Assembly: GCA_003321845.1 (NCBI GenBank)
Contig: GCA_003321845.1_3917.1
Direction: 5' to 3' (one strand)
DNA: 34,186 bases
Source of the DNA: Escherichia coli
GTDB lineage: Bacteria > Pseudomonadota > Gammaproteobacteria > Enterobacterales > Enterobacteriaceae
The stretch's first letter is position 1. The number at the start of each line of letters is the position of its first letter. The notes beneath the pieces are model-generated. The model made no database searches, was not told where the DNA came from, and was given only the letters and a program-made list of their open reading frames with translations. Made by a program: the position numbers and the translations under genes. This document shows positions 9,749 to 20,201 of this stretch, piece after piece.

Positions 9749-10126
9749 TTACAGGCCAGTTGGTACGAAATCAATACCTTTAGCAGCCAGAGCTTTCTTG
9801 ACCTCAGCAGCATCAACATCTGATTCAAGAGTAAGCAGGTCTTTTAGTTCTGCGTCACGGTAAATACCAACAACTTTCAACTGACCGTGGTAAGACAGTT
9901 GCAGGTCTGCATAAAAGTTAACAATACATACAGAATCAGCCTGAGCTTCTTCCCCTGCTGCAACTTTAGTACCATCTGCTTTCAGAACTTCACCTACACG
10001 ATATTCTGTAGATGCCTGTGGGGTGTACTCTTTACGAGAGTGGCCTGTTGGGGTAACCTGTTCCCAAAGAATGATATCATTCAGAGGTTCTCTGTTACCT
10101 AACTTAGTAAAACCTTGATATGCCAT
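9749..10126 (-). CDS. Head decoration-like protein (lambda gpD position)
   Basis: 125-aa ORF between the protease/scaffold and major capsid genes; assignment by synteny and size. Confidence 0.4.
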   Translation of the reverse strand: MAYQGFTKLGNREPLNDIILWEQVTPTGHSRKEYTPQASTEYRVGEVLKADGTKVAAGEEAQADSVCIVNFYADLQLSYHGQLKVVGIYRDAELKDLLTLESDVDAAEVKKALAAKGIDFVPTGL

Positions 10127-10137
10127 TATTGTGTTCC

Positions 10138-11484
10138 TTATTTGATAAGAGATTTTAGAGCATTCTGGAGAGCCAGTTTGCGTTGTTCAGCGGTGTCTTC
10201 GGAAGCATTCTTAGCTGGTTCTTTTTCTTCTTCAACCAAATCAGCTTCGCCGTCATTACCCACTTCTTCCATAGCATTAGAATGTTCAAGAACAGCACCA
10301 GCAGTTTCTTTCAGCTTGGTAATTTCTGATTCTTTTTCTTCCATTGCAGAAGCATGGGACGCGATAGTTTCATTAAGTTTCTGGTTAGCACCTTCCATAG
10401 CATTCATAAACAGAACACTCAGAGGGTTATCAAGACCAGCACCTAAAATAGTCGTTGCAGCTTCTTTTGCATCAAATCCAAAAGCTTCAGCAGAAGCAGA
10501 AATCTTATTAGTCAAATCTGACAAAGCAGCTTCCTGTTCTTTAGCTTTCATTTGAGCAACCTGAAGACGCAAAGCTTCTAGTTCTTGCTTTTCTTGTTCA
10601 GTCATTTCTTCACCTGAATTGTTAACGTTTAAACTTACAGGAGCCTCTTCAGAACCTTGTAAGTAATTTAAGAAATCATCTTGAGACATGATTGAGTTAA
10701 TTAAACCAAGTTCAAGAGCTTCCTGAGCAGAATAAACATTCGCCTCAGTATTCTTTACAGCTTCTTCAGAGAGATTACGGGATTCAGCTACAAAACCTGT
10801 AAAGGTTGCGTAGGTATCATTAATTCTCTTTTGAAGTCTTTCTTTGCTTTCTTCTGAAAGTGCTTGGAATGGTGAACCCATACCTTTAAACTCACCAGCT
10901 TTGATGACGTTAATTGTTACGCCATTCTTTTCAAATGCCTTAGTTAATTCCTGATGAACCATGATTACACCGATAGAACCAACATCTGCATCTGGTGATG
11001 CAATAATTTCTTCAGCAGAAGATGCAAGCGCATATGCAGCGGAACAAGCGAACTCATCTACATAAGCAATAATTTTCTTTTGGCCTCTTGAAGCCATGAT
11101 ATGACGTGCTAATTCAAAGCAACCTGAAGCTTCACCACCACCAGAATCAATATGCAGAACAATAGTCTTAATTGACTCATCTGCTAAAGCTTCGTCAAAG
11201 CCTCTGCGTAAACCTTCATAAGAGCTTAAACCACCTGTACACATTGCATCAATGAATGTCATACGGTGAGTTAAACCACCCATAATAGGGATAATAGCAA
11301 TATCATCTTTTACTTTTAAAAGACTTCTTGCTTCACCTTTAGGTTTATCAAAGTTTACTGCTGCTTGGACATCACCCAGCAATCTGTTATTCACATAAGT
11401 TGCTGCTGAGTGAGCTAATGATTCAGTGGCTAGTAAAGGTTGGTTGAATAATCTATCAGCAAGTCTGAAGATATTCGAACTCAT
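10138..11484 (-). CDS. Prohead protease (S49/ClpP-like) fused to scaffold-like C-terminal domain
   Basis: N-terminal half has S49-type motifs (IVLHIDSGGGEASG; catalytic-Ser context EFACSAAYALASSA). C-terminal ~150 aa is acidic and coiled-coil-like (EQEKQELEALRLQVAQMKAKEQEAA), as in scaffolds. Lies between portal and capsid genes. Confidence 0.75.
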   Translation of the reverse strand: MSSNIFRLADRLFNQPLLATESLAHSAATYVNNRLLGDVQAAVNFDKPKGEARSLLKVKDDIAIIPIMGGLTHRMTFIDAMCTGGLSSYEGLRRGFDEALADESIKTIVLHIDSGGGEASGCFELARHIMASRGQKKIIAYVDEFACSAAYALASSAEEIIASPDADVGSIGVIMVHQELTKAFEKNGVTINVIKAGEFKGMGSPFQALSEESKERLQKRINDTYATFTGFVAESRNLSEEAVKNTEANVYSAQEALELGLINSIMSQDDFLNYLQGSEEAPVSLNVNNSGEEMTEQEKQELEALRLQVAQMKAKEQEAALSDLTNKISASAEAFGFDAKEAATTILGAGLDNPLSVLFMNAMEGANQKLNETIASHASAMEEKESEITKLKETAGAVLEHSNAMEEVGNDGEADLVEEEKEPAKNASEDTAEQRKLALQNALKSLIK

Positions 11485-11495
11485 TTTTACTCACC

Positions 11496-11828
11496 CTATT
11501 TGTTTAAATCTACAGAGACTGAAGAGATAACATAGATACCTTCTTCAGCAAAGAATTGAGGTTTGCTAAGAGCACCAGTTGCCACGCATTTATCGTTAGC
11601 ATCCCACAAGCTATAGTGTGAGACCGTTGCAGAAGCTGGAACAGTAATATTAACTGTGTCTTCTGAGGCAATTAAGCCATTATCCGGTTCAGAAAAATAA
11701 ATAGCCACTGGCTGAGTAACCTTATTTGCTGTAGGGTCTGCCGTTGGGTCTACATTGTGTAAAATAATAGTCGTTGGGGTTAGCGTGGCGAGGATTTTAT
11801 TCTTACCATCAATAGTTAATGTTCCCAT
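11496..11828 (-). CDS. Hypothetical protein
   Basis: 110-aa ORF between portal and protease genes, stop/start coupled. Confidence 0.5.
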   Translation of the reverse strand: MGTLTIDGKNKILATLTPTTIILHNVDPTADPTANKVTQPVAIYFSEPDNGLIASEDTVNITVPASATVSHYSLWDANDKCVATGALSKPQFFAEEGIYVISSVSVDLNK

Positions 11829-12328: not shown

Positions 12329-13803
12329 TATTTATTTGCCTTATTTGCTGTGCTTGGGTCTTTCGCTGAAGGTGTCTTTGCAGTACCTTCTCCAGCGGTC
12401 TTATAACCATCTCCTGAGCGGCTTTGGCTATTTGGAGAAAGCTTTTCAGATACTGGCTGAGACTCATCAGCAGGAGGAAGACCAATATGCTCTCTAAGTT
12501 TGTTAGATAGCTCTTTGTCAACTTCCAAAGCACCTACTGCAACAGTCTTCTGAATATAAGAACCAATTGCTTCAAGGTCTGGAGTTTCGATATCATCATA
12601 TGTGATTTGTACATGTTCTTCATCATCCCACATATTAAGAGCATAAGTCTGTGCAACTAAATCACGGTTAATTACGTTCTTAATTTGCTTCAGCAGAATA
12701 TCTACTGACATTGCTAATAGGCTTGTCTTAGAATCTGCAAGAGAGAATGAACCATATTTTGACTGACCCATAGCAAGAACATCTGACATAAATGCCATCA
12801 TAATTTGCTTGGAATATCTGTCAATGATAGAACCTGTATCATATGCTTTAGCACCCTGTCTAGAAACTAATGAGAACTCAAAGATATCCTCTTTAGTATC
12901 TGGGTCGATATATCTAGGCCAGATTAAACCTGCTCTGTCATTAGCAATCATGTCATTAACAACAGTTTTGCAGTATTGTACGAAAGCTTTCTTTTCAGGT
13001 TCTGCATTTTCATCCAGATAGTCTGGTGGTAAACCAATCTTTGGCATACCTACTAAGTCTCTTGAAACACCAACAGCTTCATACTCTTCAATCTGTACTT
13101 TATATTTCCACGGTACATAAGCATTAAGTAATGGTGAACGACCTTCTGGATTTCCATATTCATCGTCATACTTAAATAGCATGAATTTAGCTCGTGGAAG
13201 TTTTCTTGTTAGAGGTCTCTCTCCAAGATTGATTGCTCCAGCAATATGTGAAACATTTCTTAGATTCTGTCTAACACCAGTAACTTTTCTAAAGTCTTCG
13301 TCAAAATACCACTTATCAAGTGTTGACTGGTTTCGGATTGGTAATTTAGCCCACCCAATTAGACCATCGTCAAATTTTGACTGGTACTTTCCTTTTTTAC
13401 CCTGACGTTTCTTATAAACCTTTTCGTTAACACAGAACCCATAAGTGCAGAATGACATTACAGAGTTAATAAAATCTGCCCAATCATGCTCCATGTCATC
13501 CATTAAAGAATTAAAGAAGTCTGCTCTTTCAAGCATTTTAGGGTCTTGCTCTTTTCCATTTGGAGGTACGAATCTCCAGTTGACTTTTCTGACAAACATC
13601 TTAATAATATTTACAGATGCTGCTACAGCAGGGTCACGCATCATTAATTGGAAAGTTTTAATACTTTCAGGGAACCTTAGTGCCTGACGAGGTTCTTCAT
13701 AGATTCTTCCATTCTTAACCTTCAGACCCAAAGAACCTACTTCACCCATTCTAAATGGTGGTAAGCTTTCTTGTGTTTCTGTAATATCTGCCATTCTTCT
13801 CAC
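12328..13803 (-). CDS. Portal protein
   Basis: 491-aa ORF immediately downstream of the large terminase gene and upstream of the protease/scaffold; canonical position and size. Confidence 0.7.
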   Translation of the reverse strand: MRRMADITETQESLPPFRMGEVGSLGLKVKNGRIYEEPRQALRFPESIKTFQLMMRDPAVAASVNIIKMFVRKVNWRFVPPNGKEQDPKMLERADFFNSLMDDMEHDWADFINSVMSFCTYGFCVNEKVYKKRQGKKGKYQSKFDDGLIGWAKLPIRNQSTLDKWYFDEDFRKVTGVRQNLRNVSHIAGAINLGERPLTRKLPRAKFMLFKYDDEYGNPEGRSPLLNAYVPWKYKVQIEEYEAVGVSRDLVGMPKIGLPPDYLDENAEPEKKAFVQYCKTVVNDMIANDRAGLIWPRYIDPDTKEDIFEFSLVSRQGAKAYDTGSIIDRYSKQIMMAFMSDVLAMGQSKYGSFSLADSKTSLLAMSVDILLKQIKNVINRDLVAQTYALNMWDDEEHVQITYDDIETPDLEAIGSYIQKTVAVGALEVDKELSNKLREHIGLPPADESQPVSEKLSPNSQSRSGDGYKTAGEGTAKTPSAKDPSTANKANK

Positions 13804-13810
13804 CTAGCTA

Positions 13811-15427
13811 TCAACGTCTAAGCCCCTCATATGGGTTTCCTCTCACTAAGTCTGTGTGAGCACCCATTGATGGTGGCTTGAATAATTTAACTTCGTTAAG
13901 ACTGTTGAAAGCATCACTGGTAGCATCCACTTGGTCATCTTTAGTTTTACCATCACCACAAAAACCTTCAAGTTCTTGGAAGTAAGCTTCATTCCAACTA
14001 CCTCTCAAGACTTTTACAAGTCCAGCTTCAGAAGCAGCAGAAAACCCCGCAAATCGGGTAACTTTATCTTTATTTGTTGGTTTAGCTCTTGCTCGATAAC
14101 CTTTCTCGGCAAGTTTCCTGATGAGGGATGTTGCGTAGGATTTACCAGCAGCGCCTGGGTCTTGAGGGATAAAAATACCAGTTCGCTTACCGTCACTTTC
14201 AGCAGTCAAATTAATTTGTGTTTCGACTCCAGAGGGTCTATCTCTAAATCTTACTACATCAATGATATAATAGCAACCGTCTTTTTTAGATTTACCCATC
14301 TTAACACCTGCTGTCCAGTCTGGATTAGGGTTAATCTCAGATGGTAAAGTTGCTGCTAAGTCCCATGCTCTGACATCGAATACATCTTCTGGGAGTGAAT
14401 CAACAATTTCACACCATTGTCTTTGCCAATAGTTTGAACCTTCTGCACGAGCCTTCCAGTTACCGAAACGAAGTCTTGCAACGTTTACAGGAGTGTTGTT
14501 TTCCAACTTACCGCGATACTTTGGTTCTAAGAAGTCAAGAATTGGGTTATCATCAATCGTACCAGAGATGAATGTATATGTTTGAGGAATCTCAAGAGGA
14601 AACATTTCAAGAATCTTGTCTCTCTCCCAATCAGAAACCATAACACCATCATTCATTACATACCAACGAATACGACCACACTTTTCAGGGTCTGGGTAAC
14701 CTTCTTCATCTAAGAATGGTTCTACCCAATCGTAAATGAAGTGGTCTCTGTCTGGGTTCATAGAAATCTTCATGTATGAATCACCTTCAGCCCCAGAACG
14801 TAGACGAGTCTGTAGGTATGAAATCTGTGAAGCAGAGAAGTGTGTACCTTCGTCAAAGTAAATAGCTGAGTATTCAATACCCTGATGACCTTCAGCGTGC
14901 TTTTCAAGTTCTAGATAGGTAAACTTGATAGTTGCCCCAGAAGGGAATGTGATAGTCATCTTCTGCTCGTGAGGAACCCCACCAAACTTACCAAATAGTT
15001 TCTTTGCAGCAGGCCATAAACCACCTTGTAACTGTGTTGTATTTCGACGGAAATATACAGCATTATAATTAGGGTCGTCAATAAACCTTAAAGAGTCCAT
15101 TAACAATGCAGCAGTCTTACCAGCACCCGCAGCACCACCATAGAGAACCAAGTCAGCATTAGTATTTAAAAAGACCTCTTGAGAACCCGGCTGAGGGGCT
15201 ACATAGTTCTTATCAGTCATCAATTTGAAGATAAGTCTAACTTGGTCTGGTGTGTATCTTAATAAAGTCAGAATTTGAGTTGGAAGGAATTTAGAGGGGT
15301 CTTTACCGAATGATTTGATAATTTCTTTTACTTCATCAGAAAGCCCCAACTCTCCAGCTAGGACTTTCCTAACATCTTCCACTCGCTTCTGCTTAACAGC
15401 ATTTAAGTCCATTAAGCACCTCCGCAA
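13811..15427 (-). CDS. terL: Terminase large subunit
   Basis: 538 aa; Walker A P-loop LYGGAAGAGKTAAL near the N-terminus, acidic nuclease-like C-terminal half, directly upstream of the portal gene. Confidence 0.8.
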   Translation of the reverse strand: MRRCLMDLNAVKQKRVEDVRKVLAGELGLSDEVKEIIKSFGKDPSKFLPTQILTLLRYTPDQVRLIFKLMTDKNYVAPQPGSQEVFLNTNADLVLYGGAAGAGKTAALLMDSLRFIDDPNYNAVYFRRNTTQLQGGLWPAAKKLFGKFGGVPHEQKMTITFPSGATIKFTYLELEKHAEGHQGIEYSAIYFDEGTHFSASQISYLQTRLRSGAEGDSYMKISMNPDRDHFIYDWVEPFLDEEGYPDPEKCGRIRWYVMNDGVMVSDWERDKILEMFPLEIPQTYTFISGTIDDNPILDFLEPKYRGKLENNTPVNVARLRFGNWKARAEGSNYWQRQWCEIVDSLPEDVFDVRAWDLAATLPSEINPNPDWTAGVKMGKSKKDGCYYIIDVVRFRDRPSGVETQINLTAESDGKRTGIFIPQDPGAAGKSYATSLIRKLAEKGYRARAKPTNKDKVTRFAGFSAASEAGLVKVLRGSWNEAYFQELEGFCGDGKTKDDQVDATSDAFNSLNEVKLFKPPSMGAHTDLVRGNPYEGLRR

Positions 15428-15433
15428 ATAGAA

Positions 15434-15634
15434 TTATTCAGAGTCTGTAGCAGTCTCTTCTTTCTTAACTTCGAACTTTGCATCAACAGCATCAAGAAGT
15501 GCATCCATAGACGCTTCTTGAATATCAATACCTGTTGCTACAGATAATCTGTCTGCAATTGCCATGATAGTATTCTGCATAAATTCTAGCTTCTTGTTAG
15601 CTTCATAAAGTTCTTTATAAACGGTCTCGCTCAT
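15434..15634 (-). CDS. Small hypothetical protein upstream of terL
   Basis: 66-aa ORF with GGAG 8-9 nt upstream of the ATG; too small for a typical small terminase. Confidence 0.45.
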   Translation of the reverse strand: MSETVYKELYEANKKLEFMQNTIMAIADRLSVATGIDIQEASMDALLDAVDAKFEVKKEETATDSE

Positions 15635-15670
15635 TATGTTTTCTCCAAATAATTAACCATGTTTCCCCTT

Positions 15671-15694
15671 AAAAAAGACGGTACAGAGACCGTC
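15671..15694 (-). terminator. Intrinsic terminator at the 3' end of the tRNA array
   Basis: Plus strand aaaaaa-gacggt-acagag-accgtc: a 6-bp stem followed by a U6 run when read on the minus strand, between tRNA-Cys and the packaging genes. Confidence 0.5.
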
Positions 15695-15856
15695 AAGGAG
15701 AAACCACAATGTACGTCAGAGACATACTGTATAAGTCTTCTTATAAAGTATAACTCTGTAAAAAAGCCCTGTCTAAAAATACTCTTCGGTAGCGAAAGGA
15801 AGAATACTTATAGCAGGGCATTATTATTATTTTAATTGAGAGAGAGTAAAATAACT

Positions 15857-15933
15857 TGGAGAATCCGAAGGGACTCGAACCCTTATAAACCTGTTTTGCA
15901 GACAGGCACATAGCCATTTCTGTCACGGATTCA
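15857..15933 (-). tRNA. tRNA-Cys (anticodon GCA)
   Basis: Hand-folded: encoded CCA, perfect 7-bp acceptor (gaatccg/cggattc), T-arm aaggg-actcgaa-ccctt, anticodon stem cctgt/acagg, loop reads CU-GCA-AA. Confidence 0.75.
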
Positions 15934-15936
15934 AAT

Positions 15937-16029
15937 TGGAGGAAGATACCAGACTTGAACTGGTACACCGATTTCTCAGCTACTGGCAGTTTAGCAAACT
16001 GCTCCCTTACCTTTTAGGGTTAATCTTCC
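15937..16029 (-). tRNA. tRNA-Ser (anticodon GCT), class II
   Basis: Encoded CCA, acceptor ggaagat/atcttcc, T-arm accag-acttgaa-ctggt, ~21-nt variable arm, anticodon stem gcagt/actgc, loop UU-GCU-AA. Confidence 0.75.
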
Positions 16030-16030
16030 A

Positions 16031-16765
16031 TTATTTCTGTAATGCGTTCTTCATTTCTGGTGTTGCAATAGTATCAATTACACCAGTTTTACAAGCATCA
16101 TCAAACCAGTCTGGTAAGATACCTGCTAAGAACCCATTGATATTCGTTTTAAGGTACTCTGCAATAAGAGCAGCTTCTTCTTCAATCATCTGCACAACTT
16201 CATCTGCATAAGCTGTAATCTTCGAAATACCTTCATTAATCTTACTAACAGCTTGGTTAGCTAAATCAGAAATAGTATCAAGACCTTTGTCAATAGCGTC
16301 TTGTAAGTCACTTAATACATCATTAACACCATCTAGAGCGCTGTTAATCGTATCCATAGCTTTTTGACCATACTCTGTAGCAACACCCATAATACCACTA
16401 AACGGTGTACAGCCAACTTGCTCTCCTGCTGCACCCATAACATTAGAATAACCTTTTGCTACCTGCATACGTGAGGAAAACTCATCAATGGACTTTTGAC
16501 CGTAATCCGTCAGCGTTTTGGTAGTTGATGTAGTGCTTGTCAGACTCGTTGTAAAGCTGTTAAGCAGAACTGTTGTAAGTCCAGCAGCAACAAGTTTATC
16601 TTTTATTGTAGGGTCTGTTACAGAGCTAATAGAGCTTACAAGTGATGTAGAGGCAGCTACGGTTCCACCGAGAACTGCTGCACCAGTAATAAGGGGATTA
16701 GAGAACCCTTTACCGGTTTTTAAGAGATTAAAAATCTCCTTACCTTGTTCTGTCATCTCTTTCAT
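16031..16765 (-). CDS. Hypothetical protein encoded inside the tRNA array (possible membrane or coiled-coil protein)
   Basis: ORF track gives 16031..16828 with a GTG start lying inside the tRNA-Phe anticodon arm. The first ATG (MKEMTEQ, at 16765) has AAGGTG 5 nt upstream and is the likelier start. Hydrophobic Gly/Ala segment followed by Ser/Thr-rich and acidic helical regions. Confidence 0.5.
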   Translation of the reverse strand: MKEMTEQGKEIFNLLKTGKGFSNPLITGAAVLGGTVAASTSLVSSISSVTDPTIKDKLVAAGLTTVLLNSFTTSLTSTTSTTKTLTDYGQKSIDEFSSRMQVAKGYSNVMGAAGEQVGCTPFSGIMGVATEYGQKAMDTINSALDGVNDVLSDLQDAIDKGLDTISDLANQAVSKINEGISKITAYADEVVQMIEEEAALIAEYLKTNINGFLAGILPDWFDDACKTGVIDTIATPEMKNALQK

Positions 16766-16781
16766 TAAGCACCTTTGAAAT

Positions 16782-16858
16782 TGGTAGTCCAGTGGGATTT
16801 GAACCCTCTTCTCATGTTTTTCAGACACGCGCTTTAACCATATAAGCTACTTGGACTA
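16782..16858 (-). tRNA. tRNA-Phe (anticodon GAA), slightly atypical
   Basis: Perfect acceptor tagtcca/tggacta, T-loop atttgaa with one T-stem mismatch, anticodon loop CU-GAA-AA. 3' CCA register is ambiguous. Confidence 0.55.
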
Positions 16859-16863
16859 TAAAT

Positions 16864-16939
16864 TGGGGTGACCTACGGGATTTGAACCCGTATAGACCAT
16901 GTTCACAGCATGGGTCATTACCATTTATGATAAGGCCAC
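16864..16939 (-). tRNA. tRNA-His (anticodon GTG)
   Basis: Encoded CCA, acceptor with one G-U pair, T-arm acggg-atttgaa-cccgt, anticodon stem ccatg/catgg, loop CU-GUG-AA. Confidence 0.7.
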
Positions 16940-16970
16940 ATTTAAGGACTCTCGTAAGAACCCTTAGAAG

Positions 16971-17046
16971 TGGCAGCGGCATAAGGATTTGAACCTTAAT
17001 AAGACAGCTTCAGAGACTGCTGCATTGCCAGTTATGCTATACCGCT
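16971..17046 (-). tRNA. tRNA-Gln (anticodon CTG)
   Basis: Encoded CCA, T-arm taagg-atttgaa-cctta, anticodon stem with two G-U pairs, loop CU-CUG-AA. Confidence 0.6.
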
Positions 17047-17051
17047 AAATT

Positions 17052-17130
17052 TGGTACTCCATATCGGATTCGAACCGATACATAACACAGATTTTAAGTC
17101 TGGCCTCTCTGCCAATTGGAGTAATGGAGC
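17052..17130 (-). tRNA. tRNA with anticodon TAA (formally Leu) but short variable arm
   Basis: Encoded CCA, discriminator A, T-arm atcgg-attcgaa-ccgat, anticodon loop CU-UAA-AA. Variable region only ~7 nt, i.e. class-I geometry, unusual for a Leu anticodon. Confidence 0.5.
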
Positions 17131-17131
17131 A

Positions 17132-17206
17132 TGGTACTCACTAAAGGACTTGAACCTTTTTCTTCATCTTGTAAGGGTGGTGTTTTACCATATAAACTAA
17201 GCGAGT
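17132..17206 (-). tRNA. tRNA-Val (anticodon TAC), tentative
   Basis: Encoded CCA, acceptor actcact/agcgagt with one G-U, T-arm aaagg-acttgaa-ccttt. Anticodon stem is imperfect; loop reads CU-UAC-AA. Confidence 0.5.
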
Positions 17207-17302
17207 GTGAAAGAGGTCTGAAGTTGTGCCGCTAACTCAACTCCGTGGAATTTGTTACGGTCTTCAGTTGACTCAAAGCGGTCTTTCACTTGACCTCTAA
17301 AT

Positions 17303-17378
17303 TGGTGCTCCCACAAGGATTCGAACCCTGATAAGTTGCTTACAAGGCAACCGTAATAGCCAATTATACGATAGGAGC
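17303..17378 (-). tRNA. tRNA-Thr (anticodon TGT)
   Basis: Encoded CCA, T-arm caagg-attcgaa-ccctg, perfect anticodon stem gttgc/gcaac, loop CU-UGU-AA. Confidence 0.75.
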
Positions 17379-17385
17379 ATTAATT

Positions 17386-17460
17386 TGGAGCATCCAGAGG
17401 GAATCGAACCCTCAACCTCAGTTTGGAAGACTGTAATTTTCCCGTTTAAACTATGGATGC
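17386..17460 (-). tRNA. tRNA-Gly (anticodon TCC)
   Basis: Encoded CCA, perfect acceptor gcatcca/tggatgc, T-arm gaggg-aatcgaa-ccctc, loop CU-UCC-AA. Confidence 0.7.
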
Positions 17461-17466
17461 ACTAAT

Positions 17467-17542
17467 TGGTGGAGTCACTGGGAATTGAACCCAGTTCCCA
17501 AGTTTGCAAAACTCGAATTTTAACCATATAAACTATGACCCC
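17467..17542 (-). tRNA. tRNA-Ala (anticodon TGC)
   Basis: Encoded CCA, acceptor ggagtca/tgacccc including a G-U pair, T-arm ctggg-aattgaa-cccag, loop UU-UGC-AA. Confidence 0.7.
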
Positions 17543-17548
17543 ATTGTT

Positions 17549-17624
17549 TGGTACAGGTGGAGGGAATTGAACCCATCGTCTTACTGATTAAGAGTCAGCC
17601 GCATAACCATTTTGCTACACCTGC
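17549..17624 (-). tRNA. tRNA-Lys (anticodon CTT)
   Basis: Encoded CCA, acceptor acaggtg/cacctgc, T-loop aattgaa with a 3-bp effective T-stem (same backbone as the Lys-TTT gene), loop CU-CUU-AA. Confidence 0.6.
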
Positions 17625-17631
17625 ATTAATT

Positions 17632-17709
17632 TGGTAGGAGACAAGGGATTCGAACCCTCAAACACCAACTTCTAAGGATGGTAGGTTTACCAATTACCGT
17701 CAATCTCCC
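17632..17709 (-). tRNA. tRNA with anticodon TAG (formally Leu) but short variable arm
   Basis: Encoded CCA, discriminator A, T-arm aaggg-attcgaa-ccctc, anticodon loop CU-UAG-AA with one A-A mismatch in the stem; class-I length (~78 nt). Confidence 0.5.
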
Positions 17710-17961
17710 ATTAAATCTTTTTAGAGAACTTCTAAGAACCTAAGCAACAAGGTTCCACAACAAGCTGTAATAACCTTAGAAGCCCTCTAAAAAGACCTAA
17801 TTTGGTCTTTGCATAGTCTTGTTTAATCCGGTGACTAGAACCTTTGGAGAGCTTGATATTATCTCTTCTCCGTGACACCTACTAGGTGCTTTATCAGTGT
17901 ACGACAATACACGAGGGATAAACCGAAAATGCGAGCAAGCATGGACGGTGTAAATCTTATT

Positions 17962-18052
17962 AGGCGGTAAGTAAAGGAGTCGAACCCTCACCGTATCTCT
18001 ACAGTGGCAACAGTTTTCAAGACTGTTTGGCTGCCATTAGCCGCTACCTACC
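17962..18052 (-). tRNA. tRNA-Ser (anticodon TGA), class II
   Basis: Perfect 6-bp anticodon stem aacagt/actgtt with loop CU-UGA-AA, ~20-nt variable arm, acceptor ggtaagt/acctacc, discriminator G. T-stem has two G-U pairs; CCA not fully encoded. Confidence 0.55.
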
Positions 18053-18065
18053 CCTAATAAGATTT

Positions 18066-18148
18066 TGGCATGGGACGGAGGAGTTGAACCCCTTTGAAAC
18101 GGTTTTGGAGGCCGTTGCTCATGCCTTAGAGTCTTAACATCGTCCCAT
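18066..18148 (-). tRNA. tRNA, probably Trp (anticodon CCA), atypical length
   Basis: Encoded CCA, perfect acceptor atgggac/gtcccat, T-loop agttgaa, anticodon hairpin acggc/accgt with loop CU-CCA-AA. About 7 extra nt in the D-arm region. Confidence 0.45.
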
Positions 18149-18291
18149 ACTGTAATTCGAAGCTTACCGTATTTTCACAACACTGTAAAGCCCCTTCTCA
18201 GATTATTTACATGTTCTGGAAAACATGAGATACAGACCACCTCCTTACACGGAGACCCGATAAGGTCGTCTAAGCAATCTGCTAACTAAAT

Positions 18292-18373
18292 TGGTCGAGG
18301 CGGCAGGACTCGAACCCGCATACTCCACTTACTCGGTTAACGGCGGTTTAGAAGACCGCTGAGATACGCCCCG
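18292..18373 (-). tRNA. tRNA-like element (anticodon-like loop TCT, Arg?) with degenerate D-arm
   Basis: Encoded CCA, acceptor cgaggcg/cgccccg, T-arm gcagg-actcgaa-cccgc, perfect hairpin gcggt-ttagaag-accgc giving CU-UCU-AA. Only ~7 nt where the D-arm should be and ~23 nt between the T-arm and that hairpin. Confidence 0.4.
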
Positions 18374-18667
18374 TAATTATCTTTAAAGACTCTCTGAGAA
18401 AGCCCTTAAAGATGCCCACATTATTAATCATACCGTGGGCTAGTACGCCAAATTCTTTGATGAGGGGTTGGAAGACCTCACTGGTGTTTAGCCTATCAAG
18501 CTACTGCCAGAAAAACATTGTCGTTTGCATTTATTTTAAATTTACAAAATAGACGCTACGCAACGAAAACTATTCAGAATATGTACAACAAATTTCCCCA
18601 CATTGTGTTACGTCTAACGCTCATGTCTTGGTGTTTGAATTATACATATGCTGAATCATTTTCAGTT

Positions 18668-18696
18668 ACTATAAAGTAGTCACATCTCAATGTCAA
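18668..18696 (-). promoter_or_regulatory. Candidate sigma70-type promoter internal to the tRNA array
   Basis: Minus strand reads TTGACA, 17 nt, TATAGT (plus-strand tgtcaa at ~18691 and actata at ~18668); it would drive the lower half of the array. Confidence 0.45.
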
Positions 18697-18711
18697 CAAC
18701 TTTATTGAAAT

Positions 18712-18785
18712 TGGTTGTAGGTGAGGGTATCGAACCCTCTTCTAACGGTTATCAGCCGTTTGCATTACCATTTATGCTAACCCAC
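18712..18785 (-). tRNA. tRNA-Ile (anticodon GAT)
   Basis: Encoded CCA, T-arm gaggg-tatcgaa-ccctc, perfect anticodon stem aacgg/ccgtt, loop CU-GAU-AA. Confidence 0.75.
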
Positions 18786-18788
18786 AAT

Positions 18789-18865
18789 TGGAGGTTCAGA
18801 TGGGAATCGAACCCACATCCATAGGGCTTATGAAACCCCTGCATTACCTTATCTGCGACTGAACC
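18789..18865 (-). tRNA. tRNA-Met (anticodon CAT; could be elongator Met or Ile2)
   Basis: Encoded CCA, perfect acceptor ggttcag/ctgaacc, T-arm atggg-aatcgaa-cccac, loop UU-CAU-AA. Confidence 0.6.
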
Positions 18866-18943
18866 ATAATAAGTACCCTAGTTAGAGAAACTATTGAGTG
18901 GGTGTTTCCAGCCGCGCAGGTGTTTCTCAGTTAAGGGTGAATT

Positions 18944-19019
18944 TGGTAGAAGTGGAGGGATTCGAACCCATCGCCTGTCAGATTAAAAGTCTGCCGCATC
19001 ACCATTCTGCTACACTTCC
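18944..19019 (-). tRNA. tRNA-Lys (anticodon TTT)
   Basis: Encoded CCA, acceptor agaagtg/cacttcc, T-loop attcgaa, anticodon stem caga/tctg, loop CU-UUU-AA. Confidence 0.65.
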
Positions 19020-19024
19020 ATTAA

Positions 19025-19167
19025 ATTATCTTTGTAGATAAGCTACCCAGACTTGCTTAAGGTCTGTAGCGATGTGCCTTTTTGGGTTTAAATCTAGAAT
19101 TTACCCTTTCACCCTTTGTGGTCGCATACTCACAGGTAAGCTTAATAACTTATCTACAAAGATAATT
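19025..19167. repeat. Perfect 18-bp inverted repeat (attatctttgtagataag / cttatctacaaagataat) enclosing ~107 nt
   Basis: Read directly from the sequence; arms at ~19025-19042 and ~19150-19167 within a tRNA-free stretch of the array. Predicts a long stem-closed structured RNA or a DNA cruciform. Confidence 0.6.
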
Positions 19168-19216
19168 ACCAGACCGTTGTTTATCATCTTAAGTGCTACC
19201 ATTACACCAACTCGAC

Positions 19217-19245
19217 ATCTGCCGAGTGAAGGAATCGAACCTTCG
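19217..19245 (-). other. Orphan tRNA T-arm-like hairpin (tRNA fragment or tRNA-like module)
   Basis: gaagg-aatcgaa-ccttc is a perfect T-arm mimic with an acceptor-like 7-mer beside it, but no matching 5' acceptor strand, D-arm or anticodon arm could be found. Confidence 0.3.
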
Positions 19246-19477
19246 CCTTTTCTTTACCGGAGAAATAGATTGTTTAAAGTTTGCTGTAAACGGTCTTCTG
19301 TAAATTTGTTGAGCCAGACCAAGTTTTAAATTTTTTCAAAATTAAATTGGCTTGAAAATTTCATACGTACTTGCTGAATTTGGTCTTCTGCTCCTTTAAA
19401 GAATACTCGTAAGAACTCTTTAAGGGAGGGGCTAAATAGCCCTCTCAAAACATCATTTTGAAATACTTATTATAATT

Positions 19478-19555
19478 TGGCGGTTACGAAGGGATTTGAA
19501 CCCTCATCATCTCCCGTGACAGGGGAGTATTTTAACCAGTTAAACTACATAACCT
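19478..19555 (-). tRNA. tRNA-Asp (anticodon GTC)
   Basis: Encoded CCA, T-arm aaggg-atttgaa-ccctc, perfect anticodon stem ctccc/gggag, loop CU-GUC-AC. Confidence 0.75.
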
Positions 19556-19560
19556 TTATT

Positions 19561-19648
19561 TGGTGTGCCGTGTAGGAGTCGAACCTACCGAGTCTCAATG
19601 ACAAGGGATTTACAGTCCCCACCGCTACCATCTACGGGATAACGACAC
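19561..19648 (-). tRNA. tRNA-Tyr (anticodon GTA), class II
   Basis: Encoded CCA, T-arm gtagg-agtcgaa-cctac, ~15-nt variable arm, anticodon stem aggga/tcccc, loop CU-GUA-AA. Confidence 0.7.
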
Positions 19649-19717
19649 ATTTAATTTCTATTCAGGCTAAGGACTTGCACCTTACAAATCGGTGAGCAAT
19701 CGCTTCTCTCCTAAATT

Positions 19718-19794
19718 TGGCGGTTAGTCAGGGATTCGAACCCTGTGCCATTCGCTTAACAGGCGACCGCACATACCTTATGTGCTTCCTAACC
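19718..19794 (-). tRNA. tRNA-Asn (anticodon GTT)
   Basis: Encoded CCA, T-arm caggg-attcgaa-ccctg, anticodon stem tcgc/gcga, loop CU-GUU-AA. Confidence 0.7.
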
Positions 19795-19871
19795 TTAATA
19801 CATTGCCAGACCGTGTTTTTTCTTTTATCCGCAAAAAGTATTTTGTTGCTGAATACGGTCTTCTGCAAAAT

Positions 19872-19948
19872 TGGAGGCGGGTGCAGGAGTCGAACCTACC
19901 GATACCATGCTAATGAGACATGTGAGACGCCCTTTCTCTATACCCGCA
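19872..19948 (-). tRNA. tRNA-Met (anticodon CAT), possible initiator
   Basis: Encoded CCA, T-arm gcagg-agtcgaa-cctac, D-stem gaga/tctc, anticodon loop with CAT. The 1:72 acceptor pair is mismatched, as in bacterial initiator tRNA. Confidence 0.55.
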
Positions 19949-20039
19949 ATTCTTAATGACCAGACCAAATCTCTTCTTTGTCCGATTTACCTTCAGATGA
20001 ATAAGATTAAGTTTGCTGCAATTGGTCTTCTGTCAAAAC

Positions 20040-20117
20040 TGGCGTTCCAGAAGGGATTTGAACCCTCAAATATCCACTTTGAAAGAGTGGCGACTTTACC
20101 GTTTTGTCTACTGGAAC
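20040..20117 (-). tRNA. tRNA-Glu (anticodon TTC)
   Basis: Encoded CCA, perfect acceptor gttccag/ctggaac, T-arm aaggg-atttgaa-ccctc, perfect anticodon stem ccact/agtgg, loop CU-UUC-AA. Confidence 0.75.
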
Positions 20118-20124
20118 ATTAATT

Positions 20125-20201
20125 TGGTCTCTGTTGGAGGACTTGAACCTCCGGCCTTACCGCCCCAAACGGAACGCTCTACCAAGCTGAGCTAAACAGA
20201 G
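20125..20201 (-). tRNA. tRNA-Pro (anticodon TGG)
   Basis: Encoded CCA, perfect acceptor ctctgtt/aacagag, perfect T-arm ggagg-acttgaa-cctcc, anticodon loop UU-UGG-GG. Confidence 0.65.

What the first reader, a model, noticed from the sequence alone, without database searches (positions are those of the whole stretch)
15857..20201. Near-complete tRNA complement (~24 genes, all on the minus strand) inserted inside the packaging operon
Hand folding recovers anticodons for Cys, Ser x2, Phe, His, Gln, Val, Thr, Gly, Ala, Lys x2, Ile, Met x2, Asp, Tyr, Asn, Glu and Pro, plus candidates for Leu x2, Trp and Arg, so potentially all 20 amino acids. Most genes encode their own CCA. The array lies between a terS-like gene and terL and is bracketed by a promoter-like site upstream and a U-tract hairpin downstream. 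Such a full set suggests codon-usage independence from the host or counter-defence against tRNA-targeting nucleases.
Basis: partly seen in the sequence, partly recalled or inferred. Interest (0 to 1): 0.55.

Follow-up and report, generated by a model that had tools for sequence, protein, structure and literature searches.

The report
Felix O1-type phage tRNA array
This is the long-known cluster of about two dozen transfer-RNA genes of Felix O1-like phages of E. coli and Salmonella. It is ordinary in itself, but its gaps hold unannotated small RNAs that look like partners of the Ro60-like protein encoded next to it.

Summary
ARAGORN tRNA genes, all on the minus strand at 15857-20201, covering 18 amino acids; 21 of them encode CCA.

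The window is a Felixounavirus, 95-97% identical over 8 kb to many GenBank phages. Felix O1's 22-tRNA cluster was published in 2010, so the finding is already known.

Codon counts support the classical reading. The 39%-GC phage uses the A-ending codons read by its U34 tRNAs 2-4 times more than E. coli, and AGA 25 times more.

The "terS-like" neighbour is wrong. The upstream gene is a Ro60-like ring protein (DUF2828/DUF7788), 99% identical to Bas63 gp130, a reported anti-Ppl factor.

New here:
- The array's gaps hold four Y-RNA-like genes, one of them YrlA-type with a permuted tRNA-like domain.
- They belong to a covarying RNA family found beside DUF2828 genes in 52 of 78 phage loci, always on the gene's strand, with no Rfam match.
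- There is also a tmRNA-like tag template (ANDNVFLAVA**).

RNA-protein binding and function are inferred, not shown.

The parts
20367..21782 (-). Ro60-like ring protein gene (471 aa; DUF2828 + DUF7788, vWA domain with a DxSxS MIDAS motif), directly upstream of the array
   Evidence: Pfam and PHROG 850 'RNA-binding protein'. AF2 model pLDDT 86.9. The top 12 PDB fold hits are all Ro60/TROVE, E about 1e-8, TM 0.5-0.65. D279, S281 and S283 are invariant. 99% identical to Bas63 gp130.
20320..20348 (-). sigma-70-like promoter site, TTGACA-17-TAATAT
   Evidence: sequence read
20228..20257 (-). sigma-70-like promoter site, TTGACA-18-TAAAGT with TG extension
20125..20201 (-). tRNA-Pro (UGG)
   Evidence: ARAGORN; Rfam 57.7 bits
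20040..20117 (-). tRNA-Glu (UUC)
   Evidence: 60.3 bits
19954..20038 (-). Y1, short Y-RNA-like gene: outer stem TGAC/GTCA, AGA/G internal loop, inner stem AGACCAA/TTGGTCT, then TTGCAGCAA
   Evidence: model R1 30.3 bits, E 0.0025
19872..19948 (-). tRNA with CAU anticodon (atypical, low-scoring)
   Evidence: ARAGORN; below the Rfam threshold; Cove 28.9 in Felix O1
19800..19871 (-). Y2, short Y-RNA-like gene
   Evidence: R1 28 bits, E 0.0085
19718..19794 (-). tRNA-Asn (GUU)
   Evidence: 48 bits
19561..19648 (-). tRNA-Tyr (GUA), long variable arm
   Evidence: ARAGORN; best Rfam match is the tRNA-Sec model at 29.6 bits; 'Pseudo (Tyr)' in Felix O1
19478..19554 (-). tRNA-Asp (GUC)
   Evidence: 66 bits
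19308..19396 (-). Y3, short Y-RNA-like gene
   Evidence: exact motif GAAGACC-N5-CAGCAA and the same fold; its ortholog in Mordin, L082 8894-8975, is hit by R1 at 30 bits. Not itself hit at E<0.1.
19164..19301 (-). Y4, YrlA-type Y-RNA-like gene. Terminal stem AGACCGTT/AACGGTCT, TTACAGCAA, V region, T arm GAAGG-TTCGATT-CCTTC, closed acceptor hairpin ACTCGGC-agat-GTCGAGT, D arm GTGT-AATGGTA-GCAC
   Evidence: R1 100.2 bits; the acceptor hairpin covaries in Moogleviruses
18944..19019 (-). tRNA-Lys (UUU)
   Evidence: 54.4 bits
18789..18865 (-). tRNA-Met (CAU)
   Evidence: 53.7 bits
18712..18786 (-). tRNA-Ile (GAU)
   Evidence: 63.4 bits
18668..18696 (-). internal sigma-70-like promoter, TTGACA-17-TATAGT (11 of 12)
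   Evidence: conserved in related phages
18375..18575 (-). tmRNA-like tag-template module. The reading frame at 18493-18528 is GCA AAC GAC AAT GTT TTT CTG GCA GTA GCT TGA TAG = ANDNVFLAVA**
   Evidence: Partial Rfam tmRNA hit, 15.7 bits, E 3e-4. ARAGORN reports this tag in L082. Conservation and covariation. Relatives in 603 phage records.
18292..18374 (-). non-canonical tRNA-like gene ('type A'): UCU anticodon loop, no D arm, C1-G72, G2-C71, G3:U70, A73, CCA
   Evidence: Rfam tRNA 31.7 bits; matches the ends of the tmRNA model at 22.1 bits; fold; present in 121 phage records. Canonical tRNA-Arg(UCU) occupies this position in other Ounavirinae.
18066..18148 (-). non-canonical tRNA-Trp-like gene (anticodon loop CUCCAAA, extended D region, G73-CCA)
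   Evidence: sequence; fold; Rfam tRNA-Sec model 23 bits only; relatives in L084 and L007
17963..18052 (-). tRNA-Ser (UGA), the only one without encoded CCA
   Evidence: (31.1 bits)
17632..17709 (-). tRNA-Leu (UAG)
   Evidence: 40 bits
17549..17624 (-). tRNA-Lys (CUU)
   Evidence: 56.9 bits
17467..17542 (-). tRNA-Ala (UGC)
   Evidence: 58.6 bits
17386..17460 (-). tRNA-Gly (UCC)
   Evidence: 59.6 bits
17303..17378 (-). tRNA-Thr (UGU)
   Evidence: 58.4 bits
17132..17206 (-). tRNA-Val (UAC)
   Evidence: 55.8 bits
17052..17130 (-). tRNA-Leu (UAA)
   Evidence: 47.5 bits
16971..17046 (-). tRNA-Gln (CUG)
   Evidence: 58.7 bits
16864..16939 (-). tRNA-His (GUG)
   Evidence: 53.3 bits
16782..16857 (-). 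tRNA-Phe (GAA)
   Evidence: 45 bits
16031..16768 (-). protein gene inside the array (245 aa, DUF7217, function unknown)
   Evidence: Pfam E 2e-90, PHROG 2114; same position in Mordin, Sf14, Yersinia phage P778 and Bas63
15937..16029 (-). tRNA-Ser (GCU)
   Evidence: 46.2 bits
15857..15932 (-). tRNA-Cys (GCA)
   Evidence: 56.4 bits
15760..15819 (-). long hairpin GCCCTG...CAGGGC followed by TTTTTT (terminator-like)
   Evidence: read from the sequence
15669..15694 (-). hairpin GACGGT-ctctgt-ACCGTC followed by TTTTTT (terminator-like)
13811..15427 (-). terminase large subunit (context, downstream of the array)
   Evidence: Pfam Terminase_6N/6C, PHROG 979
21864..22235 (-).
   Evidence: Pfam; no source names it a terminase; AF2 pLDDT 67.5 and no fold hit with E below 3

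Best explanation
The window comes from a Felixounavirus, a Felix O1-like virulent myovirus of E. coli and Salmonella. The stretch 15857-20201 on the minus strand is that genus's conserved tRNA gene cluster.

It holds 22 canonical tRNA genes for 18 amino acids and two non-canonical tRNA-like genes with UCU and CCA anticodon loops. Most genes are packed 1-7 nt apart and 21 of 22 encode CCA.

Transcription is inferred to start at host-type promoters at about 20.35, 20.26 and 18.70 kb and to run towards terL. It would end at hairpin-U tracts at 15.8 and 15.7 kb. The tRNAs would be cut out of polycistronic precursors by host RNase P and 3' processing nucleases.

The most likely job is supply. The 39%-GC phage uses A-ending codons (AGA above all) far more than its 52%-GC host, and every four-codon-box tRNA it carries has U34.

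The cluster is more than tRNAs. It is headed by a Ro60-like ring protein gene. Its gaps carry four Y-RNA-like genes (three short, one YrlA-type with a circularly permuted tRNA-like domain), a tmRNA-like tag-template RNA with its own promoter, and one protein gene (DUF7217).

I infer that the Y-like RNAs bind the Ro60-like protein through their conserved A-G-R/Y-C-U helix and the adjacent UUWCAGCAA strand. By analogy with Rsr-YrlA-PNPase, they would steer it towards structured RNA handling or counter-defence during infection.
For: Identity and array:
- The 8-kb stretch 13800-21800 is 95-97% identical, across 98-100% of its length, to the 20 best-matching Felixounavirus records; 202 records cover at least 80% of it.
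- tRNA calls are.
- Synteny DUF5681 / Ro-like / tRNAs / DUF7217 / tRNAs / small ORF / terL holds in E9, Mordin, Sf14, Yersinia phage P778 and Bas63.
- Felix O1 was published with 22 tRNAs (two 'pseudo'), no TerS, and a noted lack of an AGA tRNA.

Codon usage, phage against E. coli:
- GCA 0.43 vs 0.22; CCA 0.51 vs 0.18; ACA 0.37 vs 0.10.
- UUA 0.29 vs 0.10; CUA 0.12 vs 0.04; AGA 0.47 vs 0.02.

Ro60-like protein.

Y-like RNAs:
- Four exact copies of GAAGACC-N5-CAGCAA occur only at 19.16-20.03 kb.
- All four share one fold, and the outer stem covaries among the paralogs.
- Model R1 gives 116 hits, all on the strand of the Ro-like gene. Of these, 96 do not overlap tRNAs, and they lie in 52 of 78 loci. 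63 of the 96 lie within 500 nt of the gene.
- The terminal stem is 96-97% paired with 3-5 pair types per position, against 28-46% when the partner is slid. 0 of 500 shuffles reach the observed values.
- 15 distinct long forms show a T arm, a perfect closed acceptor hairpin and a D arm. The hairpin sequence differs in every long form that has one (18).
- The family also sits beside the Ro-like genes of a mycobacteriophage, a Listeria phage and a Campylobacter phage, and in loci with no tRNA genes at all, such as L011 and L015.
Against: - No expression, processing or binding data exist for any of these RNAs in this phage. Promoter-like matches are not more frequent than in shuffled sequence.
- The codon test is only marginally significant (p = 0.049). 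T-ending codons, which are also enriched, have no dedicated tRNA.
- In Bas63 the tRNA genes were mostly non-essential on four laboratory hosts.
- gp130 alone, expressed from a plasmid, rescued T7 on a Ppl strain. That phenotype therefore does not need the phage's Y-like RNAs.
- The Y-like RNAs lack the GNCGAAN0-1G / CGAA motif of described YrlA and Yrl RNAs and match no Rfam family.
- Y3 was not hit by the model at E<0.1.
Confidence: 0.85

Rival explanations
1. The tRNA set exists mainly as counter-defence. It would replace host tRNAs that are cut by anticodon nucleases or tRNA-targeting retron or PARIS-type systems, or it would resist such cleavage.
For: - The set is nearly complete, which pure codon compensation does not require.
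- The literature cited (van den Berg 2023; Azam 2023) shows phage tRNAs doing this in other phages.
- The neighbouring Ro60-like gene is itself a reported counter-defence gene.
- The tRNA genes are non-essential on laboratory strains, as expected for conditional tools.
Against: - The dedicated study of the same array in Mooglevirus Sf14 concluded that nuclease escape is unlikely and that late-gene translation is the main role.
- I did not compare anticodon loops with host tRNAs.
- The codon bias fits the supply model without further assumptions.
Confidence: 0.3
2. The four 'Y-like' elements are only processing or spacer hairpins of the tRNA precursor (nuclease entry sites or attenuators), or selfish repeats. 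They would have no link to the Ro60-like protein.
For: - They lie between tRNA genes.
- Other, different hairpins also fill gaps of the array.
- No binding data exist.
- gp130 acts against Ppl without them.
Against: - The same motif family sits within 500 nt of DUF2828 genes in diverse phages, including loci with no tRNA genes (L011, L015, L021, L024), and always on the gene's strand.
- Sequence outside the helix and the CAGCAA motif is free to vary, while the helix covaries.
- One form carries the permuted tRNA-like domain that defines YrlA-type Y RNAs.
Confidence: 0.12
3. The two non-canonical tRNA-like genes and the tmRNA-like module are decayed remnants (pseudogenes) with no function.
For: - ARAGORN does not call them. 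Rfam scores are at or below threshold.
- No split tRNA-like domain encloses the tag template.
Against: - The type A gene is 95-100% conserved in 117 of its 121 phage records, with a compensatory change in its anticodon stem.
- The Trp-like gene is conserved as far as a Yersinia phage whose Ro-like protein is only 53% identical.
- The tag keeps the pattern AN[DE]xx[FY]LAVA-stop across Ounavirinae, Kuttervirus and lambdoid phages although the codons differ. Its hairpins covary.
Confidence: 0.2
4. The array was inserted into a packaging operon between terS and terL.
For: - terL and portal follow directly downstream on the same strand.
- A small basic helical protein (DUF5681) lies two genes upstream and cannot be excluded as a small terminase.
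Against: - The immediate upstream gene is Ro60-like, not terS.
- DUF5681 has no terminase annotation in any source and no significant fold match.
- The Felix O1 authors found no TerS.
- The arrangement is ancestral to Ounavirinae rather than a recent insertion.
Confidence: 0.15

Closest known systems
tRNA gene cluster of Salmonella phage Felix O1 and other Felixounaviruses (Whichard et al. 2010, PMC3185647; Sf14 study, PMC12482277)
   Same: Same genes, order, strand and neighbours. The sequence is 95-97% identical to many deposited genomes, with 22 tRNAs of which two score poorly. Codon-compensation arguments were already made for GCA, GUA, AAG, ACA, UUA and CCA.
   Different: Nothing of substance for the tRNAs themselves. 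This genome carries the 'type A' allele instead of canonical tRNA-Arg(UCU). About half of the relatives do the same: 121 records against 145.
Rsr (bacterial Ro60) with YrlA/YrlB Y RNAs of Salmonella Typhimurium and relatives, and phage versions (mycobacteriophages; Thermus phage phiLo Ro60-Yrl1/2)
   Same: - A ring protein with the Ro60 fold plus a vWA/MIDAS domain.
- Several small RNA genes within 4 kb on the same strand.
- A terminal stem formed by the 5' and 3' ends.
- One RNA carries a T arm, closed acceptor hairpin and D arm, and the others are short.
- An RtcB-like ligase lies nearby in a Listeria phage, as in the Salmonella rsr-yrlBA-rtcBA operon.
   Different: - The protein is not detected by the Pfam TROVE model (only DUF2828/DUF7788) and has no sequence-level PDB hit.
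- The RNA motif is UUWCAGCAA next to an AGR/YCU helix, instead of GNCGAAN0-1G / CGAA.
- There is no Rfam match.
- The RNAs are interleaved with genuine tRNA genes.
- Binding is untested.
tmRNA (SsrA; Rfam RF00023 and the permuted RF04321)
   Same: - An A-rich stretch precedes a GCA resume codon.
- The 10-codon tag ANDNVFLAVA resembles E. coli ANDENYALAA.
- The stop codons sit in a hairpin loop.
- Structured hairpins with covariation follow.
   Different: - No acceptor/T-arm domain split around the template.
- A complete tRNA, or the type A tRNA-like gene, follows instead.
- Rfam scores (15.7-25.9 bits) are far below the gathering score of 47.
- ARAGORN does not call it in the window.
tRNA arrays of T4, T5 and other large virulent phages
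   Same: Co-oriented clusters with small stable RNAs and small ORFs between the tRNAs; proposed roles are codon supply and counter-defence (my own knowledge; literature cited).
   Different: The gene set and neighbours differ. I know of no Ro60-like gene heading the T4 or T5 arrays; this was not checked here.

Membership tests
Bacterial-type tRNA genes (Rfam RF00005 / ARAGORN) | Cloverleaf scoring at or above the curated threshold, with a 7-nt anticodon loop | tested here: met
   22 ARAGORN calls. 20 of them reach at least 29 bits on RF00005. Tyr and one CAU tRNA are called by ARAGORN only.
Bacterial-type tRNA genes (Rfam RF00005 / ARAGORN) | The same criterion applied to the two extra candidates, 18292-18374 (UCU) and 18066-18148 (CCA) | tested here: inconclusive
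   The UCU candidate scores 31.7 bits on RF00005, but ARAGORN does not call it and RNAfold shows no D arm. The CCA candidate reaches only 23 bits on the tRNA-Sec model. Both are conserved in relatives.
Felixounavirus / Ounavirinae tRNA cluster | Nucleotide identity and conserved synteny with described members | tested here: met
   The 20 listed best hits are 95-97% identical over 98-100% of the 8-kb query; 202 records cover at least 80% of it. Synteny is shown.
Ro60 / TROVE protein family | Ring of HEAT-like helical repeats followed by a vWA domain (fold level) | tested here: met
   Foldseek's top 12 PDB hits are all Ro60/Rsr/phiLo Ro60. Alignments span the full length, E 1.6e-8 to 4e-7, TM 0.48-0.65, from a model with pLDDT 86.9.
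Ro60 / TROVE protein family | MIDAS motif DxSxS in the vWA domain | tested here: met
   D279, S281 and S283 are invariant in 39 homologs.
Ro60 / TROVE protein family | Sequence-level match to the TROVE domain or to solved Ro60 proteins | tested here: not met
   Pfam reports only DUF2828 and DUF7788 at E<=0.01. phmmer against PDB sequences finds nothing at E<=10.
YrlA-type bacterial/phage Y RNA (Chen et al. 2014) | Encoded within 4 kb of the Ro60 ortholog, on the same strand | tested here: met
   Y1-Y4 lie 330-1200 nt downstream of the gene, on the same strand. Across loci, all hits are on the gene's strand and 87 of 96 lie within 2 kb.
YrlA-type bacterial/phage Y RNA (Chen et al. 2014) | tRNA-like domain: T arm, closed 'acceptor' stem-loop and D arm, enclosed by a stem of the 5' and 3' ends | tested here: met
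   Y4 has all of these. The acceptor hairpin is ACTCGGC/GTCGAGT here, ACCCTTC/GAAGGGT in Mordin and ACACGT/GCGTGT in Sf14. The terminal stem covaries. Y1-Y3 lack the domain, as YrlB does.
YrlA-type bacterial/phage Y RNA (Chen et al. 2014) | Conserved 5' motif GNCGAAN0-1G (CGAA), the proposed Ro60 contact | tested here: not met
   The invariant motif here is C-A/C-G-C-A-A, directly after the 5' strand of the stem. The published motif is quoted.
YrlA-type bacterial/phage Y RNA (Chen et al. 2014) | Physical association with the Ro60 protein; tRNA-type modifications | not testable with these tools
   Needs immunoprecipitation or EMSA, and modification mapping.
tmRNA (RF00023 / RF04321) | Tag reading frame with a GCA resume codon after an A-rich stretch, and stop codons in a hairpin loop | tested here: met
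   AAAAUAAAU-GCA...UGA UAG lies within UAGC-UUGAUAG-GCUA. Tag variants conserve the peptide pattern.
tmRNA (RF00023 / RF04321) | Alanine-accepting tRNA-like domain formed by the two ends around the template; score at or above gathering | tested here: not met
   Scores of 15.7, 22.1 and 25.9 bits against a gathering score of 47. ARAGORN makes no tmRNA call in the window. The 5' acceptor strand lies after the template, not before it.
   The immediate neighbour is Ro60-like. For DUF5681 the test is inconclusive: pLDDT 67.5 and a best fold E of 3.1.

The most novel reading that the evidence does not exclude
The 'tRNA array' of Felix O1-like phages is really a composite RNA island organised around a divergent Ro60-like protein. 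The island would encode that protein's own, so far undescribed, class of Y RNAs (terminal AGR/YCU helix plus UUWCAGCAA, in short forms and tRNA-mimic forms). This class is shared by hundreds of DUF2828-encoding phages of Gram-negative, Gram-positive and mycobacterial hosts.

The same island carries a free-standing tmRNA-like tag template and a D-armless UCU tRNA-like gene with alanine identity elements. Together these would let the phage remodel host RNA surveillance, trans-translation or decoding of AGA.
Probability: 0.6. Interest if true: 0.65.

Novelty: already known. Interest (0 to 1): 0.35.

Why it matters
The tRNA array itself adds nothing new. It was described for Felix O1 in 2010 and is annotated in hundreds of genomes.

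What matters is what annotation pipelines and two dedicated studies did not place.
- The Ro60-like gene next to the array is 99% identical to Bas63 gp130, which has a reported counter-defence phenotype.
- The authors of that study could only guess that 'some tRNA genes' might be its Y RNAs.
- Here the candidate Y RNAs are located precisely, in the gaps between the tRNAs. In Bas63 one such gap is annotated as an opposite-strand hypothetical ORF.
- They belong to a large covarying family linked to DUF2828 genes.

This makes a phage Ro60-Y RNA particle directly testable in an E. coli phage that already has a knockout method. The tmRNA-like tag template and the alanine-type UCU tRNA-like gene are further concrete leads on how phages tamper with translation quality control.

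Tried and rejected
- ARAGORN with lowered thresholds and intron search. At ps80 it added only implausible opposite-strand calls and one 'Pyl' call, so nothing was gained.
- Rfam at E<=5 over 15.4-20.5 kb. It gave no YrlA, Y_RNA or ribozyme hit for the repeated elements. The plastid, miRNA and sRNA hits are tRNA mirror images or noise.
- I first wondered whether CAGAAGACC...GGTCTGG could be a small self-cleaving ribozyme (hammerhead or hairpin-like). I dropped this because the core motifs do not fit and the family context points to Y RNAs.
- An exact-motif regex across 80 DUF2828 loci found the motif only in Felixouna- and Moogleviruses. The family became visible only through a T-arm scan and a covariance model.
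- The D stem could not be aligned in one register by MAFFT. The model's D helix is only 63% paired, so I checked D arms per sequence instead.
- ARAGORN's permuted tmRNA call in Mordin (L082 8965-9714) joins the Y4 hairpin to the distant tag across three tRNA genes. I regard that as an artefact, although the tag itself is real.
- The Rfam permuted-tmRNA alignment in the window uses the tRNA-Ile 3' half and a GUGGGG segment that is missing from most relatives. Rejected.
- Rfam finds no tmRNA in the Kuttervirus or HK633 relatives.
- My first collection scan used the wrong spacer length and found nothing. The corrected scan worked.
- terS test of DUF5681: homolog names, structure and fold search were all uninformative.
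- Literature searches for DUF2828, for Felixounavirus with 'RNA-binding protein', and for phage-encoded tmRNA returned nothing relevant.

Full report
**1. The observation**

ARAGORN finds 22 tRNA genes in the window. Rfam's tRNA model reaches its gathering score for 20 of them.

The two exceptions are Tyr (19561-19648) and one CAU tRNA (19872-19948). They are the same two that scored as 'pseudo' or lowest in the original Felix O1 paper.

The canonical set covers 18 amino acids; Arg and Trp are missing.
- 18292-18374 has a UCU anticodon loop. It scores 31.7 bits on the Rfam tRNA model and ARAGORN does not call it.
- 18066-18148 has a CUCCAAA anticodon loop and an over-long D region. It scores only 23 bits, on the tRNA-Sec model.

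Twenty-one of the 22 genes encode CCA, and within the clusters the genes are 1-7 nt apart.

Near-consensus TTGACA-type sites lie at 20348-20320, 20257-20228 and, inside the array, 18696-18668. Hairpins followed by T runs lie at 15819-15760 and 15694-15677. The promoter scan overall is no richer than shuffled sequence.

**2. Where it comes from**

The 8 kb around the array (13800-21800) is 95-97% identical, over 98-100% of its length, to the 20 best-matching Felix O1-like phages of E. coli, Salmonella and Shigella. In all, 202 records cover at least 80% of it.

The gene order is the same in every relative examined: Escherichia phage E9, Citrobacter phage Mordin, Shigella phage Sf14, Yersinia phage P778 and Bas63. 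That order is:
- DUF5681 protein
- 471-aa protein
- tRNA genes
- DUF7217 protein
- two more tRNA genes
- 66-aa ORF
- terminase large subunit
- portal

Felix O1 was published in 2010 with 22 tRNAs (two of them 'pseudo'), codon-usage arguments, the remark that a tRNA for AGA was unexpectedly missing, and the statement that no TerS could be found. A 2025 paper analysed the same array in Sf14. As a tRNA array, the finding is already known.

**3. What the tRNAs are probably for**

I counted codons in 43 ORFs of the window (8791 codons) and in 39 annotated genes of E. coli K-12 (14271 codons). The window is 39% GC and the E. coli stretch 52%.

Every four-codon-box tRNA of the phage has U at position 34. 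The A-ending codons they pair with are 1.9-3.8 times more frequent among synonyms than in E. coli:

| Codon | Phage | E. coli |
|---|---|---|
| GCA | 0.43 | 0.22 |
| CCA | 0.51 | 0.18 |
| ACA | 0.37 | 0.10 |
| UCA | 0.26 | 0.11 |
| GUA | 0.33 | 0.17 |
| CUA | 0.12 | 0.04 |
| UUA | 0.29 | 0.10 |
| AGA | 0.47 | 0.02 |

Codons that pair exactly with a phage anticodon have a mean log2 ratio of +0.55, against -0.26 for codons that no phage tRNA reads (one-sided Mann-Whitney p = 0.049).

This supports supply of scarce decoders as the main role, as earlier authors proposed. The significance is marginal, and T-ending codons are also enriched without a dedicated tRNA.

Counter-defence against tRNA-cutting systems is a plausible added role that I could not test. 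The Sf14 study argued against it. In Bas63 the tRNA genes were mostly dispensable on four laboratory hosts, which fits either a conditional role or a small quantitative one.

**4. The neighbour is not terS**

The gene directly upstream of the array (20367-21782) matches Pfam DUF2828 and DUF7788 and PHROG 850, 'RNA-binding protein'.
- An AlphaFold2 model built on 39 homologs has pLDDT 86.9.
- Its 12 best PDB matches are all Ro60 proteins: Xenopus Ro60, Deinococcus Rsr and Thermus phage phiLo Ro60. The alignments span the full length at E about 1e-8 and TM 0.5-0.65.
- The vWA MIDAS residues DxSxS are invariant.
- There is no sequence-level match to TROVE or to solved Ro60 chains.

The protein is 99% identical to Bas63 gp130. 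A 2024 preprint noted gp130's structural similarity to Ro60. It showed that gp130 counters the Ppl defence system, also when moved into T7 or expressed alone from a plasmid. [quoted passage not shown]

The next gene upstream (DUF5681) gave a poor model and no significant fold match, and no source names it a terminase. The 'packaging operon' reading is therefore unsupported.

**5. What lies in the gaps: Y-RNA-like genes**

Reading the minus strand shows four copies of GAAGACC-N5-CAGCAA followed 45-115 nt later by GGTCTGG. They occur only between 19164 and 20038.

All four fold the same way:
- an outer 4-bp stem whose sequence differs in each copy but stays paired (TGAC/GTCA, TTGC/GCAA, GAGC/GCTC, TTAC/GTAA)
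- an AGA/G internal loop
- an inner stem AGACCNN/NNGGTCT
- a single-stranded WNCAGCAA

The fourth copy (19164-19301) carries between the two strands, in this order:
- a T arm, GAAGG-TTCGATT-CCTTC
- a closed 7-bp hairpin, ACTCGGC-agat-GTCGAGT
- two nucleotides
- a D arm, GTGT-AATGGTA-GCAC

This is the permuted tRNA-like domain that defines YrlA-type bacterial Y RNAs. In Moogleviruses the hairpin is ACCCTTC/GAAGGGT or ACACGT/GCGTGT, which are fully compensatory changes.

**6. The Y-like family across phages**

I fetched 80 phage loci that encode relatives of the Ro60-like protein. A T-arm scan outside the tRNA genes showed similar elements in many of them. A covariance model built from 21 of these elements was run over the window and 78 loci.

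Results of that search:
- It gave 116 hits at E<0.1, every one on the strand of the protein gene.
- After removing hits that overlap ARAGORN tRNAs, 96 remain, in 52 of the 78 loci searched. (The script printed 83 as the denominator because it counted loci that were not searched.)
- 63 of the 96 lie within 500 nt of the gene and 87 within 2 kb.
- Loci with no tRNA genes at all, such as L011 and L015, also have hits.

In the window the model scores Y4 at 100 bits, Y1 at 30.3 (E 0.0025) and Y2 at 28 (E 0.0085). Y3 is missed, although its Mordin ortholog is hit.

Covariation is strong:
- The terminal stem is 96-97% paired with three to five pair types per position.
- It is 28-46% paired when the 3' partner is slid.
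- No shuffle out of 500 reaches the observed pairing or covariation score.
- The alignment was fitted to the model, which favours the structure. The size of the effect and the strand and position bias do not depend on that.

Fifteen distinct long forms show the full T arm / perfect hairpin / D arm order, and the hairpin sequence differs in every long form that has one (18).

The family consensus is A-[A G R N U N N]-U U W C A G C A A ... [N N A N Y C U]-G. It differs from the GNCGAAN0-1G / CGAA motif of described YrlA and Yrl RNAs.

No Rfam family matches. The family also sits next to the Ro-like genes of three more phages:
- Mycobacterium phage Krypton555: long form, 58.9 bits
- Campylobacter phage CP81: short form
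- Listeria phage LP-064: short forms, with an RtcB-like ligase close by

In Bas63 the Y4 ortholog (98.6 bits) lies in an unannotated gap. That gap is overlapped by an opposite-strand 'hypothetical protein'. The Y-like RNAs are therefore not among the annotated tRNAs, as the preprint guessed, but between them.

Chen et al. 2014 reported YrlA RNAs in 22 phages with annotated TROVE proteins: mycobacteriophages, CcrColossus and Bacillus phage G. I found no report for Felix O1-like phages or for the DUF2828 branch.

Shown versus inferred:
- Shown: the anatomy, the covariation and the genomic linkage.
- Inferred: that these RNAs are expressed, that they bind the protein, and what the particle does.

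gp130 acts against Ppl without them. So they may modulate or redirect the protein rather than being required for that effect.

**7. Other things in the gaps**

- After the internal promoter comes a module that resembles the template part of tmRNA. AAAAUAAAU is followed by GCA AAC GAC AAU GUU UUU CUG GCA GUA GCU UGA UAG (ANDNVFLAVA**, 18493-18528). The stop codons lie in the loop of a UAGC/GCUA hairpin, and further hairpins follow.
- Rfam's tmRNA model aligns this stretch only weakly (15.7 bits), and ARAGORN reports the tag only in Mordin.
- The module is conserved in Felixouna- and Moogleviruses, with synonymous changes in the tag and compensatory changes in a hairpin.
- Relatives occur in 603 phage records, including Kutterviruses and lambdoid phages. 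Their tags are ANDNTFLAVA, ANEEMYLAVA, ANDDQFLAVA, ANDEQFLAVA and ANDQTFLAVA: different codons, same pattern.
- No split tRNA-like domain encloses the template, so this is not a tmRNA by definition.
- Directly after it comes either canonical tRNA-Arg(UCU) (145 records) or, as in this window, the 'type A' tRNA-like gene (121 records).
- Type A has a UCU anticodon loop whose stem covaries, no D arm, and C1-G72, G2-C71, G3:U70 and A73. From my own knowledge, that is the alanine identity set.
- Whether type A accepts Arg or Ala is open. AGA is the phage's commonest Arg codon.
- The Trp-like gene is conserved as far as a Yersinia phage.

**8. Verdict**

The tRNA array is already known and ordinary for this phage genus. 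The unannotated Y-RNA-like genes beside a Ro60-like counter-defence gene, and to a lesser degree the tmRNA-like module and the type A tRNA-like gene, deserve follow-up.

Noticed in passing
window 18375-18575 (-), tag 18493-18528; relatives in L090 (Kuttervirus SeSz-1), L091 (HK633), L092-L136: A tmRNA-like tag-template RNA (ANDNVFLAVA**) with its own promoter and without an enclosing tRNA-like domain. Relatives occur in 603 phage records with tags AN[DE]xx[FY]LAVA. In lambdoid HK633 it sits between Q/PR' and the holin gene. It is unannotated everywhere I looked.
   Followed up: partly
window 18292-18374 (-): A D-armless tRNA-like gene with a UCU anticodon loop and alanine-type acceptor features (G3:U70, A73). 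It replaces canonical tRNA-Arg(UCU) in about half of Felixounaviruses (121 records against 145). AGA is 47% of the phage's Arg codons.
   Followed up: partly
window 18066-18148 (-); L084 about 11440-11525; L007 about 10000-10070: A non-canonical tRNA-Trp-like gene (anticodon CCA, C31-A39 mismatch, extended D region beginning GAUGUUAAGAC), conserved between Felixounavirus and a distant Yersinia phage. Automated finders miss it.
   Followed up: partly
window about 19030-19164 (-): A perfect 15-bp inverted repeat, ATCTTTGTAGATAAG / CTTATCTACAAAGAT, encloses about 105 nt just 3' of Y4. Inside it is the hairpin CAGAC-cttaagcaa-GTCTG. This may be another structured RNA. Some genome annotations call small ORFs here.
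   Followed up: no
window 16950-16990, 17720-17800, 18380-18415, 19400-19440 (-): Recurrent hairpins with stems of the type CTTTAAAG/CTTTAAAG or TAAGG/CCTTA. Two of them have the loop GTTCTTACGAG. They lie between tRNA clusters and may be processing or termination signals.
   Followed up: no
window 18576-18665 (-): About 90 nt between the internal promoter and the tmRNA-like module are present in this window, L001 and L004 but absent from L002, L003, L005, L006 and the Moogleviruses. This is an indel polymorphism inside the array.
   Followed up: partly
related phages: SP22, SPJ41, warpig, L006/L097: HNH or other homing-endonuclease genes are inserted at various points of the array in relatives but not in this window. 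The array is a hot spot for such insertions.
   Followed up: no
window 16031-16768 (-): A 245-aa DUF7217 protein gene lies inside the array, at the same position in all Ounavirinae examined. It has weak PHROG similarity to tape-measure segments, and its function is unknown.
   Followed up: no
L086 (Listeria phage LP-064), L087 (Campylobacter phage CP81), L032/L033: DUF2828 genes keep company with other RNA-repair or quality-control items. An RtcB-like ligase lies 1.3 kb downstream in LP-064. Five tRNA genes lie directly upstream in CP81, where a short Y-like RNA overlaps the annotated ORF140. Bona fide tmRNA genes (tags ending GELAVA) lie 4.5 kb downstream in L032 and L033.
   Followed up: partly
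L137 (Bas63, MZ501086) 27749-28023: The annotated opposite-strand 'hypothetical proteins' bas63_0137 and bas63_0138 overlap the Y4 ortholog (27777-27914, 98.6 bits). They are probably mis-called ORFs. Knockout phenotypes assigned to them would really report on the Y-like RNA.
   Followed up: partly
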